DNA from: Prorocentrum cordatum
Lineage: Eukaryota
Length of the DNA: 54,982 nt
Direction of reading: 5' to 3'
Assembly (NCBI GenBank): GCA_963575745.1
Contig: CAUYUJ010000195.1
Location: 62,001 to 116,982, forward strand
The notes beneath the pieces are model-generated. The model did no database searches. It was not told where the DNA came from and saw only the letters and a program-made list of their open reading frames with translations. Position numbers and translations under genes: made by a program. Shown here in pieces: positions 3,619 to 10,674 of the stretch. Position 1 is the stretch's first letter; each line of letters begins with the position of its first letter.

Positions 3619-3767
3619 TCAAGGGGCACAAGGGCAGACAAATAAATACGCACAAATAAAAATATTCCCCATATTTTCACATGTTTTTCTGGGTTTCTGT
3701 CTTCCCCCCCACTTCCCACATTTTCGCATTTTTTCTGGAAATCGACGAATAATTGCGTCTGCGTGTT
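3619..3767 (+). mobile_element. family A copy, truncated at GTT by the YR retrotransposon terminus
   Basis: Family A sequence runs to ...GTCTGCGTGTT, then switches to AGCTCCTG. Confidence 0.8.
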
Positions 3768-4097
3768 AGCTCCTGCTCCCTTCCTCCGTCTTTTTCATTG
3801 GTTCCGCGCAAACACGGTCCAATCCGAGGCCGCTCCCGGCTCCAGGCGCAGCGGCGCCGCAGGCAGAAAAACAAAAGCAATAAGGGGTGGGCGGGCGGGA
3901 CAAGCGGTCCCACCCTTGAGCCCCAAACAGCGGCAGACACGCGGCGAGCGCGCGCGAGAGTGAGACACGACGAGGGGCACCAGGGAGTCTAACTTTGCTT
4001 CACCTTTGTGAATCCGAGTTAGCTCCTGCCCCCTTCCTCCGTCTTTTTCATTGGCTCCGCGCAAACACGGTCCAATCCGAGGCCGCTCCCGGCTCCA
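3765..4097 (-). repeat. split direct repeats: B2 3765-3844, A2 3845-4017, B1 4018-4097
   Basis: Two 80-bp direct repeats (2 mismatches) immediately downstream of the YR stop, both starting GTTAGCTCC on +. Confidence 0.85.
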
Positions 4098-4149
4098 ATG
4101 CCAATGAAGGAAAAAGGGGGAGCGGCGCAGGAATGCGGCACAGCGGTGC

Positions 4150-5536
4150 CTAATTTTCAGGGCCAGAATCGTCGACGACCCCCTGCGCCAGCAGGCCGGC
4201 GGCCACCTCGTCGCCCGAAACGCACGGGCGGGCAGAGGCTACCGATCGCCAGCCCCCCCCGCGCGAGCATGGCTTCCACGCCCGACGCGGCAAAAACGTC
4301 CGCGGCCGCGCCCCTCCGGACGTCGTGGCCGAACCACTCTTCGGGACTCGCGACCCCGAGAGCGCGCAGATGGGAACGGAGCTCGGCTGTCCACGTCTCA
4401 GGGGTGTATCCGCCAAGCGGGCGGCCACCGAACCCGAGGAGCTCATCCCACACGGGCAGCCACGTGTGCAAGCAGATGCCTTCATCCACCCCGCACGTAC
4501 AGAAAGCGAAGACCGTGCACAAATCGATCCTCTGCTTCCGGCGAATCGGTCCATACACGAAACGACCGCCCTGCGCCTGCGCGCGAGCGCGCGTGCATTG
4601 CGCGAACAGCTCGGATGGCATCCGCAAGAGGAAATTATATGCCAGCGCCGCTATAACACACCACCACTTACGTTGGCGCGACAGCGCGAAGCGCAGCAAC
4701 CTCCGCAGCAACAGCCTGTCTACGCGCTGCCTGGGCATACGGGGGGCCCGGTTTTTGGCCGTGCCCACACGAATGCCGCGCAAAATGACGTCCTGATCGC
4801 CTTGCCAGGGGACGCCGGCCTCCTGGTGCGCCAGGGCCCACGCGCTCAGCCACCCACGCTGTGTGGAGGCACAAGCGCAGACAGCAGCAACCCTACGAAC
4901 ATGTTGAACCGAGCACCCCAGCGGAAATTCCCCAAACAATTCGCTCGCCCACGCAATCATACGCAGGTGCGAAGCGTATGTCCGCAGCGTGGACGGTACC
5001 GTTTTGCACAGGAACCGTTGTTGCACCACCGAATCCGCCACGGTCTGGAGATTGACGCCCGCCGCGCGGGCTTCAGCCAGGGCGGACAACACCTCCCGGG
5101 GAGGCGCCCCGTCGGGGTGCCTGTGGCTACAACCCCTGTCTCTGCTAAGCGCGACCATCATGTCCCAGTTGCGCCTGTCTGTCGCTTGGGTAATGGAGTC
5201 GAGAACTCCCCAGAACGTGTCCCACAGTGCAGCGGCACCCTGCGGGGCAGAGGCAGCGGCCAGAGACTGCACCCCGCGGGGGCCCGGGCAGGCATCGCGC
5301 GGGTGGCCAGGCGGGCCACCGCTGCCACCGTGGCCGGCGGAACCAGACGAGCACGCGAGCTGCCCCGCGGCGCCGCGAGCGGACGAGCTAGGCTCCGCGG
5401 CGGCCTCAACGATGAGCGCGTCGGAGGCCGGAGCGGCCGGCGCCTGCCGCACTGGCCCAACAGCACGCTGCACGGCGGCACGGGGCCGCTTGGGTGACGG
5501 GAACCGCGGCCCCACCCTATGCAGTTTCCTCCTCAT
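4150..5536 (-). pseudogene. tyrosine recombinase of DIRS-type retroelement (frameshifted; catalytic Tyr replaced by Cys)
   Basis: Motifs STLRTYAS (N-terminal core-binding region), AYNFLLRMPSE (R), RRKQR (K) and GHDVRRGAA (HxxR). Removing one G from the G8 run (4253-4260) gives RGGWRSVASARPCV...PEN*. Confidence 0.88.
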
Positions 5537-6089
5537 GTGCCGGCGGGCGCCGGCGCGCCAGCGGGCGCGCTAGAGCCACACGGCTGCTCCAATCCCTGTT
5601 TGCTGGGGTTCCTCGTGTCCACCTCGCCCTCGTCACGTCGTCGTCGTCGTCGTCCTTCCCCGCCTCCGCGCCCGGGCCTGGGGGGGGGAAATGTTTTATC
5701 TATGTCTACGGAGAAACGAGGCGAGGCGCCGGCGAGCCCCCGCGAGAAGAAAAGCCAAGTTTGGTCCCTGGGGCCACGCAGCGCGCCCCTCGCGCTCTCT
5801 TCGCCCTCGGCACGAGAGCCGCCGACCCGCATCGACCCCCCAAACAGCTCCTCAATCCTGGCCGGGGTGCCCCAAAACGAACGGAGAGACCAACAACATC
5901 CCTCGCCAGACAGGCGGACACGCCGCGTGGATCCAACCCCCTCCAGGGAATGTCCGGGATTGGGGAGGGGAGGGCAACTATGAGAGGGAAAGAAGGGAGG
6001 AGGGGGGGGGGGGAGGACGGAAGCAGGCGGAGGACGAGAGCCCAGGAACGACGACGAGACAAGACTTCCTGTGTTTTGCGAGCGCCAAC

Positions 6090-6403
6090 TTACAGTCCGT
6101 GGCAGCGGCCAAAGTCCACCGAAAGCGTCGGCGAAACAGTCACCACGTCCGCCCCTAGCCTGCGAAGTGCGGCTTCGCCGTCGTCGCGCGAGGCCAGGTC
6201 GAGCGGATTTGATTGAGTATGTACATATTCGAACCACGCCCTGATGTCGTAATGACACAACAGCTCGTGGATTGCTCCCACCACACACGCAACATGTGGG
6301 GAATTGGCGTATCCTTTGATACACCCACTGATGGCTGCCATGCTGTCCCCAAAACAGAACACGCAGTGAGAGCGCAGCTGGTCGCCCCACAGCTCAAGAC
6401 GAG
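6090..6403 (-). pseudogene. C-terminal RNase H domain of DIRS-type RT-RH polyprotein (fragment)
   Basis: LELWGDQLRSHCVFCFGDSMAAISGCIKGYANS...WFEYVHTQSNPLDLASR matches the D-N/S-x-A-A ... W/YV-x-S/T-x-x-NPAD-x-x-SR pattern. Confidence 0.8.
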
Positions 6404-6973
6404 GTGGAGGAGGAGGAGGAGGAGGAGGACGACGACGACGACGACGACCACGACCACGACGACGACTACGCCACCAGCGGGGGGGGATCTCTGGATGCCC
6501 CCCGAGAGGTGCCCAGAGGTCCCATGAGGCTTCTGCAAAGCCGAGGCGCCCCAACGCCTCGACCGCCGGCCCCCCTCGACCACCCTGCCTGTCTCACGCC
6601 GCCGGGAGGTCGAGGCACGGAGCGCCGCCGCCGCGCCGCGGCGGGCCCAGCGGCGCTCCTCCTCGCGATCCTCGGTCGCCAGCCGCTCGTTGCGCTCGCG
6701 CAGGTAGCTTGGGGGCGGCGGGTCTTGCTGCGGTCTTCCCGGATCCTCCGCCTCTGCCTCCCACGACTCCTCCTCGCCCGGGCAGCTCCTCCAGCGCATC
6801 CCCGGGTGCAGCTCCAACCTCTGGCGCCCGCTCCGCTGCACGTCTCTCCCCACCCTCACCGTCCCAGCGGATCCTCCTCGTCCTCCTCCTTGCATGATTG
6901 GGGAGCTCACAGCTGCATGCAATGCAGCCCAGAAGCTTGGGACAGAGGGCAGCATGCTGTCAGAAAGCACCTC

Positions 6974-7190
6974 GGGGCCACGAAACGTGTGAGCGGTGTG
7001 CCGACATGGGCGTGGTGGCGCCATGCGGACCCTGCCACTGAGGCCTTCCGTGAGGCTGAACATATGGTCACGGAACGTGCGAGTGGTGTGCCGACATGAG
7101 GCGGTGCCGCCATGCGGATCCTTGGTGGGGTCAGGAAACTTGCGAGGGGTGTGCCGAAATCAGGCAGTGGCGCCATGTGGACACTGCCGC
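6974..7190 (+). repeat. degenerate tandem repeat (GCCACGAAACGTGTGAGGGGTGTGCCGA), also at 46675-46875
   Basis: Recurring motif in several diverged units at both loci. Confidence 0.65.
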
Positions 7191-9050: not shown

Positions 9051-9209
9051 GGCTGGCTCTGGACCTCTGCTTACTTATTGAACGTGGGGGGGCAAAACGT
9101 CGTGGGGGGGCCACGCCGGCGAAAATTATCGCAGGGCCTAATCTTCACGCCGGCAAAAAATATGTCGCCCGAGCGACGGCGAAAATCATGCACCATCTCA
9201 GGGTCGCCA

Positions 9210-9383
9210 ACGATGATGGTGAGAATAATGAAGATGGTAATGATGATGGTGATGACGATGTTGAAGACGATCGCACGATCATGAGGATGATGGTGAAAGA
9301 TGAGGACGGTTCTGCCAGATGCGGTGGATGAGCCATATTGTAAGGATGACGATGACGCTGATGATGATGGTTGTAGCAGTGAC

Positions 9384-9414
<31 letters not shown>

Positions 9415-9500
9415 TTGATGATAATGATGGCGGTGATGCTAATGGACATCAGGAAGACGGCGAAGATGATGGCGATGAAGATGGGGAGGAGAACGACGAA
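9210..9500. repeat. degenerate (GAT)n microsatellite
   Basis: Directly visible. Confidence 0.85.
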
Positions 9501-10302
9501 GGGAATGCCGTCACATGTGCCACCTTTTCGTCCTACTTCTCGGGGGCTACATGGACCTCATTCTGGCCGTCTTGGGGCTGTCCTGGTCTCCTGAAGAACA
9601 CTCATGAAGGTGCCATGTGGCTCCCTGGGGCCGTCATGGGGACCTCTTGGGCCGTCTTGGGTCTCTCATTGGGCCTTCGTGGCCATCTGGTTGGTCTCTT
9701 GGGGCCGTGGCAAGTGAGTGCCGTCGCGGCGTGCAGGATGTCAGCGTTGAGTTTAAAATCGATCGTGCTCTCTCGACCTATCCCGCCACAACCTGCTGGA
9801 CTTCTCAAGTGAGAAAAAACGAATGACGCACCTCTCAAATCATATCCGCAAGACATGGCGCAAACATGCTGATCAAAACGTGTGGTAGCTCTCCAAGCAG
9901 GCGGATGTGAACAAACGCGGGACACGTGCAATGCTTGAGCGCTTGCTGCACAATTTGCGAACATCTGTACGAACACACCCCAATAACCGTCAATATTGCG
10001 AACGATTTGCATTCGTAGGCACCGGCAAAAATTAAGCCGCCGTCTCGCGAGGGTCGGCGGTAAATATTCTTCGGGGCCCAACGCCGGCGAAAATTATACT
10101 GGTGCCCAAGAGGGCGCGCTGTGAAAATTTTACCACCCACGCTCCATAAAGCAAGGGTAGCGCGACCGTTTGCCATAGTGCATCCTATGGCGCAGGCCCC
10201 ACCTGCTTGAAACAGGCGCCAAAATTTCGAGGTTTGAACCAGGGGAAGGGGAAGGGGGGGGTGCGAGGGCCCGCGCGCGCCGGTCTGCAAAGCAAGGAAA
10301 AC

Positions 10303-10451
10303 TGAAGGCGCCCTGGGAGACACAAATGAATACACACAAATAGAAAGATTCCCCATATTTTCCCATGTTTTCTGGGTTTCTGTCTTGCCCCCCACTTCCC
10401 ATATTTTCCCATATTTTCTGGGGAATCGAGGATTCATTGTGTCTGTGTGTT
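10303..10451 (+). mobile_element. family A copy, truncated at GTT by a second YR-element terminus
   Basis: ...GTCTGTGTGTT|AGCTCCTG junction. Confidence 0.8.
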
Positions 10452-10674
10452 AGCTCCTGCTCCCTTCCTCCGTCTTTTTCATTGGCTCCGCGCAAACACG
10501 GTCCAATCCGAGGCCGCTCCCGGCTCCAGGCGCAGCGGCGCCGCAGGCAGAAAAACAAAAGCAATAAGGGGTGGGCGGGCGGGACAAGCGGTCCCACCCT
10601 TGAGCCCCAAACAGCGGCAGACACGCGGCGAGCGCGCGCGAGAGTGAGACACGACGAGGGGCACCAGGGAGTCT
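10449..10674 (-). mobile_element. second YR-retrotransposon 3' terminus (B2 + partial A2)
   Basis: 226 bp matching 3765-3990, with one mismatch seen by eye. Confidence 0.9.

What the first reader, a model, noticed from the sequence alone, without database searches (positions are those of the whole stretch)
3619..10674. Tyrosine-recombinase retrotransposon that appears to integrate site-specifically into another repeat family
Seen: two YR-element 3' termini (3765-3990 and 10449-10674) are nearly identical. Each is fused at exactly the same GTT (...GTCTGYGT-GTT|) of a family A copy, yet the two host A copies differ from each other at many positions. The same GTT forms the internal A/B junction (4018-4020, ATCCGA-GTT-AGCTCC). 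Known: Ngaro/PAT-type elements have A1...B1-A2-B2 split direct repeats, and their circular-intermediate junction recombines with a short matching target without a TSD. Inference: two independent recent insertions used GTT as crossover core and an abundant ~160-bp repeat as attachment site, i.e. a repeat-homing YR integrase system.
Basis: partly seen in the sequence, partly recalled or inferred. Interest (0 to 1): 0.82.

Follow-up and report, generated by a model that had tools for sequence, protein, structure and literature searches.

The report
Recombinase retrotransposon remnants inside a short repeat
Two remnants of a jumping gene that inserts with a tyrosine recombinase sit at exactly the same three-letter spot (GTT) in two different copies of a very abundant 165-base repeat, which hints at targeted insertion, but two nearby cases in one window cannot prove it.

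Summary
On the minus strand lies a broken Ngaro-like tyrosine-recombinase (YR) retroelement. It has an RNase H tail (6398-6093), a YR gene (5536-4150, with a frameshift and Cys in place of the catalytic Tyr) and a B-A-B terminal repeat (3765-4097). A second 227-nt terminal piece (10449-10675) is 225/226 identical to 3765-3990.

Both pieces begin at the same GTT of a ~165-bp SINE-like repeat ("HR"). The window holds 12 HR copies, 11 on the + strand. The two host copies are only 122/147 identical and their outer flanks are unrelated. Intact HR copies run on after the GTT with TTTTCCCCTCCTGA, so the element lies inside HR and HR is not part of it. The same GTT joins A to B inside the element, as the published 3-bp (NTT) crossover rule for DIRS-order elements predicts.

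"Repeat-homing" is only partly supported:
- There are two cases, 6.7 kb apart.
- Both are truncated, and neither has the predicted right junction.
- No genome was available for a genome-wide count.
- One insertion followed by homology-guided local copying explains the data nearly as well.

Dinoflagellate DIRS/Ngaro elements, and YR retroelements with fixed targets (TATE), are already in print. Interest is moderate.

The parts
3619..3767 (+). Host repeat copy HR1, left 149 nt only. It is cut after GTT (3765-3767) and lacks its last 14 nt.
3765..3844 (-). Terminal repeat B (B2 in element sense). It starts with the shared GTT.
   Evidence: 78/80 to 4018-4097 and 79/80 to 10449-10528
3845..4017 (-). 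Repeat A (A2 in element sense), 173 nt. It ends ...GTGAATCCGA.
4018..4097 (-). Internal repeat B (B1). The A|GTT|B junction at 4018-4020 is the presumed copy of the circle junction.
4150..5536 (-). Tyrosine recombinase gene, defective. The frame shifts in a C8 run at 4254-4261. The codon at the conserved catalytic Tyr is Cys (4225-4223; ARPCV against the family's ARPYV).
   Evidence: Fold of relative P0001 matches Cre.
6093..6398 (-). C-terminal ~100 residues of the RT/RNase H ORF, followed by a stop at 6092-6090. Everything upstream of it (RT, gag, A1) is missing and replaced by microsatellites and other repeats.
8712..8862 (+). Intact host repeat copy with a 6-bp target duplication (GCTGTC). 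It shows the uninterrupted site ...GTCTGTGTT-TTTTTTTCCCCTCCTGA.
10305..10451 (+). Host repeat copy HR2, left part only, cut after the same GTT (10449-10451).
10449..10675 (-). Second element fragment: B plus the first 146-147 nt of A. 10449-10674 is 225/226 identical to 3765-3990 and the match runs one base further (to 3991/10675). It then joins unrelated low-copy DNA.
31274..31436 (+). Intact host repeat copy with the canonical empty site GTGTCTGTGT-GTT-TTTTCCCCTCCTGA. There are eight further copies beyond those listed above: 2824-2982, 28901-29065, 32272-32421, 32982-33143, 34441-34609, 49276-49427, 49953-50099 and 51059-51204 (minus strand).

Best explanation
A Ngaro-like (DIRS-order) tyrosine-recombinase retrotransposon of a probable dinoflagellate genome entered a copy of an abundant SINE-like ~165-bp repeat (HR). 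Entry was by recombination at a 3-bp core, GTT, which is shared by the element's A|B circle junction and by a fixed site 14 nt from the 3' end of HR. The recombinase prefers this HR site, probably by reading bases beside the GTT. As a result a second terminal fragment was joined at the homologous GTT of a neighbouring HR copy, either by a second integration or by recombinase-mediated exchange with the resident end. Both copies later lost their 5' parts together with the right-hand piece of HR.

Shown: the anatomy, the shared GTT, and the sharp break in identity at the junction.

Inferred: the circle intermediate, the preference for HR, and the later deletions.
For: - Two junctions lie at the same nucleotide of two HR copies. 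Those copies are 122/147 identical and their outer flanks are unrelated (68/156), while the inserted block is 225/226 identical.
- Intact HR copies carry TTTTCCCCTCCTGA after the GTT. The element therefore interrupts HR.
- GTT also sits at the internal A/B junction.
- Published rule: DIRS1-like elements begin and end with an NTT trinucleotide equal to the 3-bp circle junction, GTT in several, and integrate at an identical genomic triplet without a target duplication (PMC3266345, passages; PMC7192593, passages).
- Precedents for fixed or preferred targets: TATE at one position of the telomere hexamer (PMC6681497, passages) and Ngaro into endogenous virophages (PMC8547959, passages).
- The YR fold is supported. 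The model of P0001 has 27 PDB matches at E <= 0.001, with Cre on top at 1e-5. The spacing H-x2-R ... 25 ... W ... 9 ... Y is seen in alignment A1.
- The HR site matches the element's own junction at 12 of 30 flanking positions. Only 4.2% of 952 other GTT/AAC sites in the window do as well.
- In the run that holds most of the stretch, HR bins show word depths of 5,743-25,876, against 0-17 for the element's bins. This is a rough measure, not a copy number. HR is thus a separate and far commoner family.
Against: - There are only two junctions. They lie 6.7 kb apart and in the same orientation, although the element appears rare relative to HR. Two independent hits this close are unlikely, which points to a local, non-independent event.
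- Neither copy has the right junction that the model predicts. The predicted junction was also absent from the JGI metagenome contigs, though that collection also lacked the element's B repeat, so this absence says little.
- Both copies keep the element's 3' end and lack its 5' part. Conservative circle integration does not predict this pattern.
- The flank similarity (top 4%) is weak.
- A1, gag and RT are missing, so the full Ngaro structure is not seen.
- This copy's recombinase is dead (Cys for Tyr, plus a frameshift), so any activity came from other copies.
Confidence: 0.5

Rival explanations
1. One chance insertion followed by local copying. The element entered HR1 once, needing only a GTT. 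Later a break just right of the GTT region in the neighbouring HR2 was repaired using the HR1 locus as template. Homology between the two HR copies ends exactly at the GTT, so synthesis ran on into B-A for 227 nt. The end was then joined without homology, and HR2's right part was lost. No targeting of HR is needed.
For: - The two loci are 6.7 kb apart, in the same orientation and near-identical (225/226).
- The second copy is short, ends at an arbitrary point in A, and lacks HR's last 14 nt and any flank duplication.
- By word depth the element is roughly a thousand-fold rarer than HR, so a second independent hit next door is unlikely.
- HR covers about 3.5% of this window (12 copies), so a single chance landing in HR is not extraordinary.
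Against: - The HR copies are only 83% identical over 147 nt, with mismatches 6 and 12 nt from the junction. That is a poor substrate for homologous repair.
- This rival leaves the GTT shared by target and element junction as mere compliance with the 3-bp rule.
- It needs a break at the right place.
Confidence: 0.27
2. One-ended, 3'-anchored insertion of incomplete cDNA. The 5' end of linear first-strand cDNA (the + strand here, starting at B) is joined to the target strand broken after GTT. This could happen by the recombinase's own 3'-phosphotyrosine ligation chemistry, or by target-primed reverse transcription by a LINE enzyme acting in trans. The variable far end is then joined by host repair.
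For: - Both copies have a precise junction at the element's 3' end and are truncated at different points toward its 5' end (227 nt and about 2.6 kb).
- Both lack the second junction and HR's right part.
- Three bases (GTT/AAC) of overlap between target and element end would suit priming or ligation.
- Linear single-stranded cDNAs, including incomplete ones, are reported as DIRS-1 intermediates (PMC7192593, passages).
- HR's variable flank duplications show that a LINE-type machinery is active in this genome.
Against: - Two truncated copies can equally be ordinary later deletions. The region right of 6398 is full of microsatellites and other repeats.
- No poly(A) or filler is seen.
- No precedent for such recombinase chemistry on cDNA ends turned up in the papers read.
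Confidence: 0.1
3. Assembly artefact. The 227-nt block at 10449-10675 is a mis-join or collapsed repeat path, so the second junction, or its truncation, is not real.
For: The block is 225/226 identical to one 6.7 kb away. The region is dense in high-copy repeats. The public contigs laid gave almost no cover of 10496-11000 (word depth 1.55, then 0, in the best run), so nothing confirms the join.
Against: HR2's own sequence differs from HR1 right up to 6 nt before the junction, and there is one difference inside B. The locus is therefore not a simple copy-paste of locus 1. A mis-join at 10675 would still leave a real HR2|B junction.
Confidence: 0.06
4. The ~150 nt left of the GTT belong to the element itself. 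Either it is a composite consensus, or HR is a SIRE-like derivative of the element's ends, so nothing was targeted.
For: In Trypanosoma cruzi the short repeat SIRE is the A2-B2 end of VIPER (PMC6681497, passages), so short repeats can derive from YR element ends.
Against: - HR copies beside the element are 83% identical, while the element ends are 99.6% identical.
- 10 of 12 HR copies in the window have no element. The intact ones carry a 14-nt tail that the two occupied copies lack.
- Several HR copies have their own flank duplications of 3-6 bp, and 46 bp in one case.
- Depth differs by about three orders of magnitude.
Confidence: 0.03

Closest known systems
Ngaro-type retrotransposons (DIRS order), including the dinoflagellate 'SymbioDIRS' elements
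   Same: - A tyrosine recombinase in its own ORF downstream of RT/RNase H.
- B-A-B block at the 3' end, as in A1-[ORFs]-B1A2B2 (PMC8547959 and PMC5890265, passages).
- No methyltransferase after RNase H.
- RT/RH too divergent for Pfam, as reported for Symbiodinium DIRS (PMC5890265).
- Isolated A-B remnants occur, as in Cafeteria (PMC8547959).
   Different: A1, gag and RT are missing from this copy. No DNMT domain is seen. The apparent fixed target inside a short dispersed repeat is not described in the passages I read.
DIRS1-like elements and their 3-bp junction rule
   Same: A trinucleotide of NTT type (GTT in stickleback, Saccoglossus and Tetraodon elements) is shared by the element ends, the circle junction and the target. 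No target duplication is expected (PMC3266345, passages and Table 3).
   Different: DIRS1-like elements have inverted terminal repeats, an internal complementary region and usually a methyltransferase. Here the repeats are direct and split. Only one of the two flanking triplets can be seen.
TATE of Leishmania braziliensis, and VIPER/SIRE of trypanosomes
   Same: TATE is a YR retroelement found at the same relative position of a repeated target, the telomere hexamer. SIRE is an abundant short remnant equal to A2-B2 of VIPER, like the 227-nt B-A piece here (PMC6681497, passages).
   Different: The target here would be a dispersed SINE-like repeat, not telomeric DNA. HR is not derived from the element. 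Gene order here is RH then YR.
Ngaro insertions into endogenous virophages (EMALEs) of Cafeteria burkhardae
   Same: A YR retrotransposon that preferentially sits inside another mobile element (PMC8547959, passages).
   Different: There the insertions are at many positions of the virophage (intergenic, genes, TIRs). Here they are at the same nucleotide in both cases.

Membership tests
DIRS order / Ngaro-like YR retrotransposon | Encodes a tyrosine recombinase (Arg ... His-x-x-Arg ... Trp/His ... Tyr catalytic set, Cre/Int fold) | tested here: met
   - Alignment A1 shows LRMPSE, HDVRRG, GGWRS and ARPYV.
- The AF2 model of P0001 (68% identical; catalytic-domain blocks at pLDDT 78-96) matches Cre at E 1e-5 over ~310 columns, and also XerH, lambda Int and Tn1549 Int.
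- 4 of 24 distant family members give sub-threshold PF00589 hits.
- Pfam and PDB sequence searches of the window's ORF and of close relatives were negative.
- The window's own copy is defective (Cys for Tyr, frameshift).
DIRS order / Ngaro-like YR retrotransposon | RT/RNase H ORF in the same element | tested here: inconclusive
   - Only the last ~100 residues are present (6398-6099). They are 69% identical to the C-terminus of P0018. No RT remnant was found in 5500-8900.
- P0018 carries YFDDY and resembles RVT_1/RT_RNaseH clusters in the Atlas (score 0.96, TM up to 0.87, a lead only).
- The AF2 model of the full-length relative P0163 is poor (pLDDT 46.5). Its best PDB rows are all RNase H or RT, but only at E 0.008-0.04.
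- Pfam was negative for 4 of 4 proteins and 4 of 4.
DIRS order / Ngaro-like YR retrotransposon | Split direct repeats A1 ... B1-A2-B2 | tested here: inconclusive
   B-A-B is present at the 3' end. A1 is absent because the 5' part of the copy is missing. B-A-B alone could also be read as 1.3 tandem units of 253 bp.
DIRS order / Ngaro-like YR retrotransposon | No methyltransferase domain after RNase H (separates Ngaro/VIPER from DIRS1/PAT); RH before YR | tested here: met
   The RH ORF stops at 6092-6090. Relatives P0018, P0161 and P0163 end at the same place. YR follows about 550 nt downstream on the same strand.
DIRS order / Ngaro-like YR retrotransposon | Integration at a 3-bp sequence identical to the circle junction, no target duplication | tested here: inconclusive
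   The left side fits: GTT is shared by HR, by the start of B and by the internal A/B junction. The right junction is missing at both loci.
Target-specific retrotransposon (as TATE, R2 and the like) | Most genomic copies at one position of one target sequence | not testable with these tools
   2 of 2 element ends in the window sit at the same HR position. No genome is held. The printed rows of the reads laid showed no junction-spanning contig. Metagenome and viral scans gave 0 hits.
Crypton (YR DNA transposon) | YR as the only mobility enzyme, no RT/RH, no long terminal repeats | tested here: not met
   An RH remnant lies upstream on the same strand, and there are 80- and 173-nt terminal direct repeats. 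Caveat: RH and YR are linked only by adjacency and orientation.
SINE-like retroposon (for the host repeat HR) | Discrete short unit, exact 3' end, variable 5' start and variable-length flank duplications, very high copy number | tested here: met
   - Flank duplications: GCTGTC (copy at 8712), ATAGT (34441), TATG (28901), GAATG (49953), TAT (49276) and 46 bp (31274). Two further evaluable copies are unclear.
- Word depth is 5,743-25,876 in the best run.
- No Rfam family matched, and no promoter test was done.

The most novel reading that the evidence does not exclude
The recombinase of this family recognises a defined site in the HR repeat and joins the 5' end of linear, often incomplete, first-strand cDNA to the target strand it has cleaved after GTT. 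This would be one-ended, repeat-homing integration. It would make 3'-anchored, 5'-truncated copies without a second site-specific junction, and so link the linear single-stranded cDNAs reported for DIRS-1 to the integration step.
Probability: 0.1. Interest if true: 0.8.

Novelty: new member of a known kind. Interest (0 to 1): 0.42.

Why it matters
How tyrosine-recombinase retrotransposons choose their targets is poorly known. The 3-bp rule rests on comparisons of element ends, and few families show a longer, defined target. If this family really homes to one site of a short, hugely abundant repeat, two things follow. It would offer a natural eukaryotic recombinase with a definable attachment site and thousands of genomic landing pads. 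It would also be an example of a "safe haven" strategy in the giant, repeat-rich genomes of dinoflagellates. As it stands, the window gives a clean and testable prediction, not a demonstration.

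Tried and rejected
- Earlier findings of this scan: nothing for this genome or these sequences. A word search returned three YR-element notes from other genomes that do not bear on this case.
- JGI metagenome contigs: 0 matches to the predicted right junction and 0 to a 23-nt core of B. The collection evidently lacks this element, so the first zero is not evidence against the model.
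- Viral contigs: no relative of the YR (40 pattern matches, none confirmed) and no match to B.
- Sequencing runs: 5 were listed, with the best share 0.18, and 4 were laid. The printed rows show no contig across 3765, 4018, 10449 or 10675. Most rows were not shown (638 loose ends, 13,663 pieces). Parts without cover say nothing.
- Remnants of HR's 14-nt tail or of flank duplications to the right of either insertion: none.
- RT remnants in 5500-8900 by permissive tblastn: only noise besides the RH tail.
- Rfam on the whole window: 0 families.
- Pfam on 31 other long ORFs of the window: only one sub-threshold low-complexity hit (SR-25), so no recognisable genes.
- PDB sequence searches gave only chance-level rows: the YR profile, P0018 and P0163.
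- Considered and rejected: segmental duplication of HR plus the element end. The outer flanks are unrelated and the HR copies are 83% identical.
- Considered and rejected: HR inserted into the element. The occupied HR copies lack their 3' tail, which a 3'-primed retroposon would not lose.

Full report
**What is there**

The window is GC-rich, packed with repeats, and has no recognisable genes. The only named relatives of its proteins come from the dinoflagellate Prorocentrum cordatum, so a dinoflagellate source is likely.

Between 3765 and about 6400 lies a broken retroelement on the minus strand. Read on the + strand it consists of:
- an 80-nt repeat B (3765-3844), a 173-nt segment A (3845-4017) and B again (4018-4097; 78/80 identical);
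- a 1.39-kb ORF running 5536 to 4150;
- after a ~550-nt spacer, the last ~100 codons of another ORF (6398-6099), with a stop at 6092-6090.

**The long ORF is a tyrosine recombinase**

Pfam and PDB sequence searches found nothing. The word-indexed protein search found 17 relatives, the best 68% identical. An exhaustive profile search found 553 representatives at E <= 0.001, 222 at <= 1e-10 and 86 at <= 1e-30.

Their alignment shows LRMPSE, HDVRRG, GGWRS and ARPYV. As I recall Cre's catalytic residues, this spacing (His to Trp 25, Trp to Tyr 9) is close to Cre's.

An AlphaFold model of the closest intact relative had mean pLDDT 62.8, with the catalytic part mostly 78-96. It gave 27 PDB matches at E <= 0.001. 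Cre was on top (1e-5, ~310 aligned columns), followed at weaker E-values by XerH, lambda Int and the Tn1549 integrase. Four of 24 distant family members gave sub-threshold Phage_integrase hits.

The window's own copy is dead. The frame shifts in a C8 run (4254-4261), and the codon for the presumed catalytic Tyr reads Cys.

**The upstream remnant is the end of an RT/RNase H gene**

It is 69% identical to the C-terminus of P0018, a 411-residue P. cordatum protein. P0018 carries a YFDDY motif. It resembles RVT_1/RT_RNaseH clusters in the ESM Atlas (score 0.96; structural TM up to 0.87, including a Dam-plus-RT cluster typical of DIRS elements). These Atlas results are leads only.

Pfam does not see these proteins. 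That agrees with the remark that Symbiodinium DIRS reverse transcriptases align poorly with Pfam seeds (PMC5890265, passages).

My model of the full-length relative P0163 was poor (pLDDT 46.5). Its best PDB rows are all RNase H or retroviral/Ty3/CaMV RT, but only at E 0.008-0.04. I count this as weak, consistent support.

No RT, gag or 5' repeat A1 remains in the window. Beyond 6398 there are microsatellites and other high-copy repeats.

The order RH then YR, the absence of a methyltransferase and the B-A-B end fit the Ngaro type, A1-[ORFs]-B1A2B2 (PMC8547959, PMC5890265; passages).

**The host repeat**

The ~150 nt to the left of both element ends belong to a family I call HR. The window has 12 copies, 11 on the + strand.

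Intact copies end ...ATTGTGTCTGTGTGTT-TTTTCCCCTCCTGA. The two copies next to the element stop at the GTT and lack the last 14 nt. Six of the eight evaluable intact copies have their own short flank duplications of differing length:
- GCTGTC, ATAGT, TATG, GAATG and TAT;
- one 46-bp duplication.

Two others are unclear. An exact 3' end and a slightly variable 5' start make HR look like a LINE-dependent, SINE-like retroposon. Rfam knows no such family.

In the public run that holds most of this stretch, HR bins reach summed word depths of 5,743-25,876. The element's bins reach 0-17. The tool warns that depth is not a copy number, but three orders of magnitude make HR a separate and far commoner family. 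Variant contigs over the RH region (6339-6361) show that the element is itself multi-copy.

A second block, 10449-10675, repeats 3765-3991 with one mismatch. It starts at the same GTT of a different HR copy:
- HR part: 122/147 identical.
- Inserted part: 225/226 identical. Fisher p = 3.5e-10 for this against the HR part.
- Outer flanks: 68/156, unrelated.

The HR mismatches reach to 6 nt from the junction. GTT also joins A to B at 4018-4020. This excludes a plain segmental duplication and the idea that HR-left is part of the element.

**How this compares with what is known**

DIRS1-like elements are reported to begin and end with an NTT triplet equal to the 3-bp circle junction (GTT in several). 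They are reported to integrate at an identical genomic triplet without a duplication (PMC3266345, passages and Table 3; also discussed in PMC7192593). The GTT here is therefore expected behaviour, not a novelty.

Preference for particular targets is also in print:
- TATE sits at one position of the Leishmania telomere repeat, and SIRE is the A2-B2 remnant of VIPER (PMC6681497, passages).
- Ngaro elements prefer endogenous virophages in Cafeteria, where isolated A-B repeats also occur (PMC8547959, passages).
- DIRS-type A-coding-B-A-B elements are described in Symbiodinium (PMC5890265).
- Ngaro-class repeats are annotated in Amphidinium (PMC11572971, passages).

My searches turned up no report of a YR retroelement aimed at a fixed site of a dispersed short repeat. 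The library is incomplete. I recall Goodwin and Poulter's primary papers (2001, 2004, 2005) from memory and from reference lists only, and did not read them. No supplements were consulted.

**Is it repeat-homing?**

For homing:
- The same nucleotide is used in two diverged HR copies. With GTT alone as the requirement, about 9 of the window's 1003 GTT/AAC sites would qualify.
- The HR site resembles the element's own junction at 12 of 30 flanking bases. Only 4.2% of 952 other sites do as well.

Against taking the two as independent events:
- They lie 6.7 kb apart in the same orientation, although the element is rare relative to HR.
- Both keep the element's 3' end and lack its 5' part.
- Neither has the predicted A-GTT-TTTTCCCC junction, HR's tail or a flank duplicate to its right.

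A single insertion followed by repair of a nearby break in HR2, templated by the HR1 locus, would produce the second junction at exactly the GTT. That is where homology between the two loci ends. The poor HR identity (83%) speaks against this route but does not exclude it.

A third reading is one-ended joining of incomplete linear cDNA at a GTT break. It fits the shared truncation pattern and the linear cDNAs reported for DIRS-1 (PMC7192593), but it has no direct support.

**Verdict**

The GTT crossover reading is well founded on one side. Targeting of HR is plausible (about even odds) but rests on two possibly linked junctions. The decisive genome-wide count could not be made here.

Noticed in passing
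window 15700-22384: A 6.7-kb near-continuous (TAC)n trinucleotide array (about 2,200 units, 80% matches). It gives the low-GC, strongly C-skewed block seen in the composition profile.
   Followed up: no
window 31229-31580: The HR copy at 31274-31436 is flanked by a 46-bp direct duplication (AAGTAGACAATCTCAA.GCAACGCAGCAGACGTCAGAGCACTCGTT). The right-hand copy pairs with an inverted copy about 50 nt further on, so HR seems to have landed in one arm of a hairpin-forming (MITE-like) element with an unusually long duplication.
   Followed up: partly
window 50917-51204: The only minus-strand HR copy ends at the same position as the YR insertion site. It runs into a 154-bp array of ACACAGAC units (19.5 copies), an expansion of HR's own GTCTGTGT motif next to the target GTT.
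   Followed up: no
window 6974-7195: Three ~60-70-nt related units (GGCCACGAAACGTGTGAGCGGTGTGCCGACATG...) belong to the most abundant repeat of the stretch. Summed word depth is 88,747 in the best run, and it is also high in two metagenome runs. A related 89-bp tandem array lies at 46568-46843.
   Followed up: no
window 53304-54982 and 7858-8042: A 184-bp satellite (9 units, 93% matches) runs off the window's end. A single diverged unit lies at 7858-8042, between the element remnant and the next HR copy.
   Followed up: no
window, all HR copies: 11 of 12 HR copies lie on the + strand across 55 kb. This is a strong orientation bias, with no recognisable genes in the window to explain it.
   Followed up: no
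protein P0016 (Prorocentrum cordatum gene model): A 771-residue annotated protein fuses a short RT-like piece (..GKLVFASRGLQGK..), the C-terminal half of this YR family and WD40-type repeats. It is probably a gene model that swallowed a rearranged element copy.
   Followed up: no
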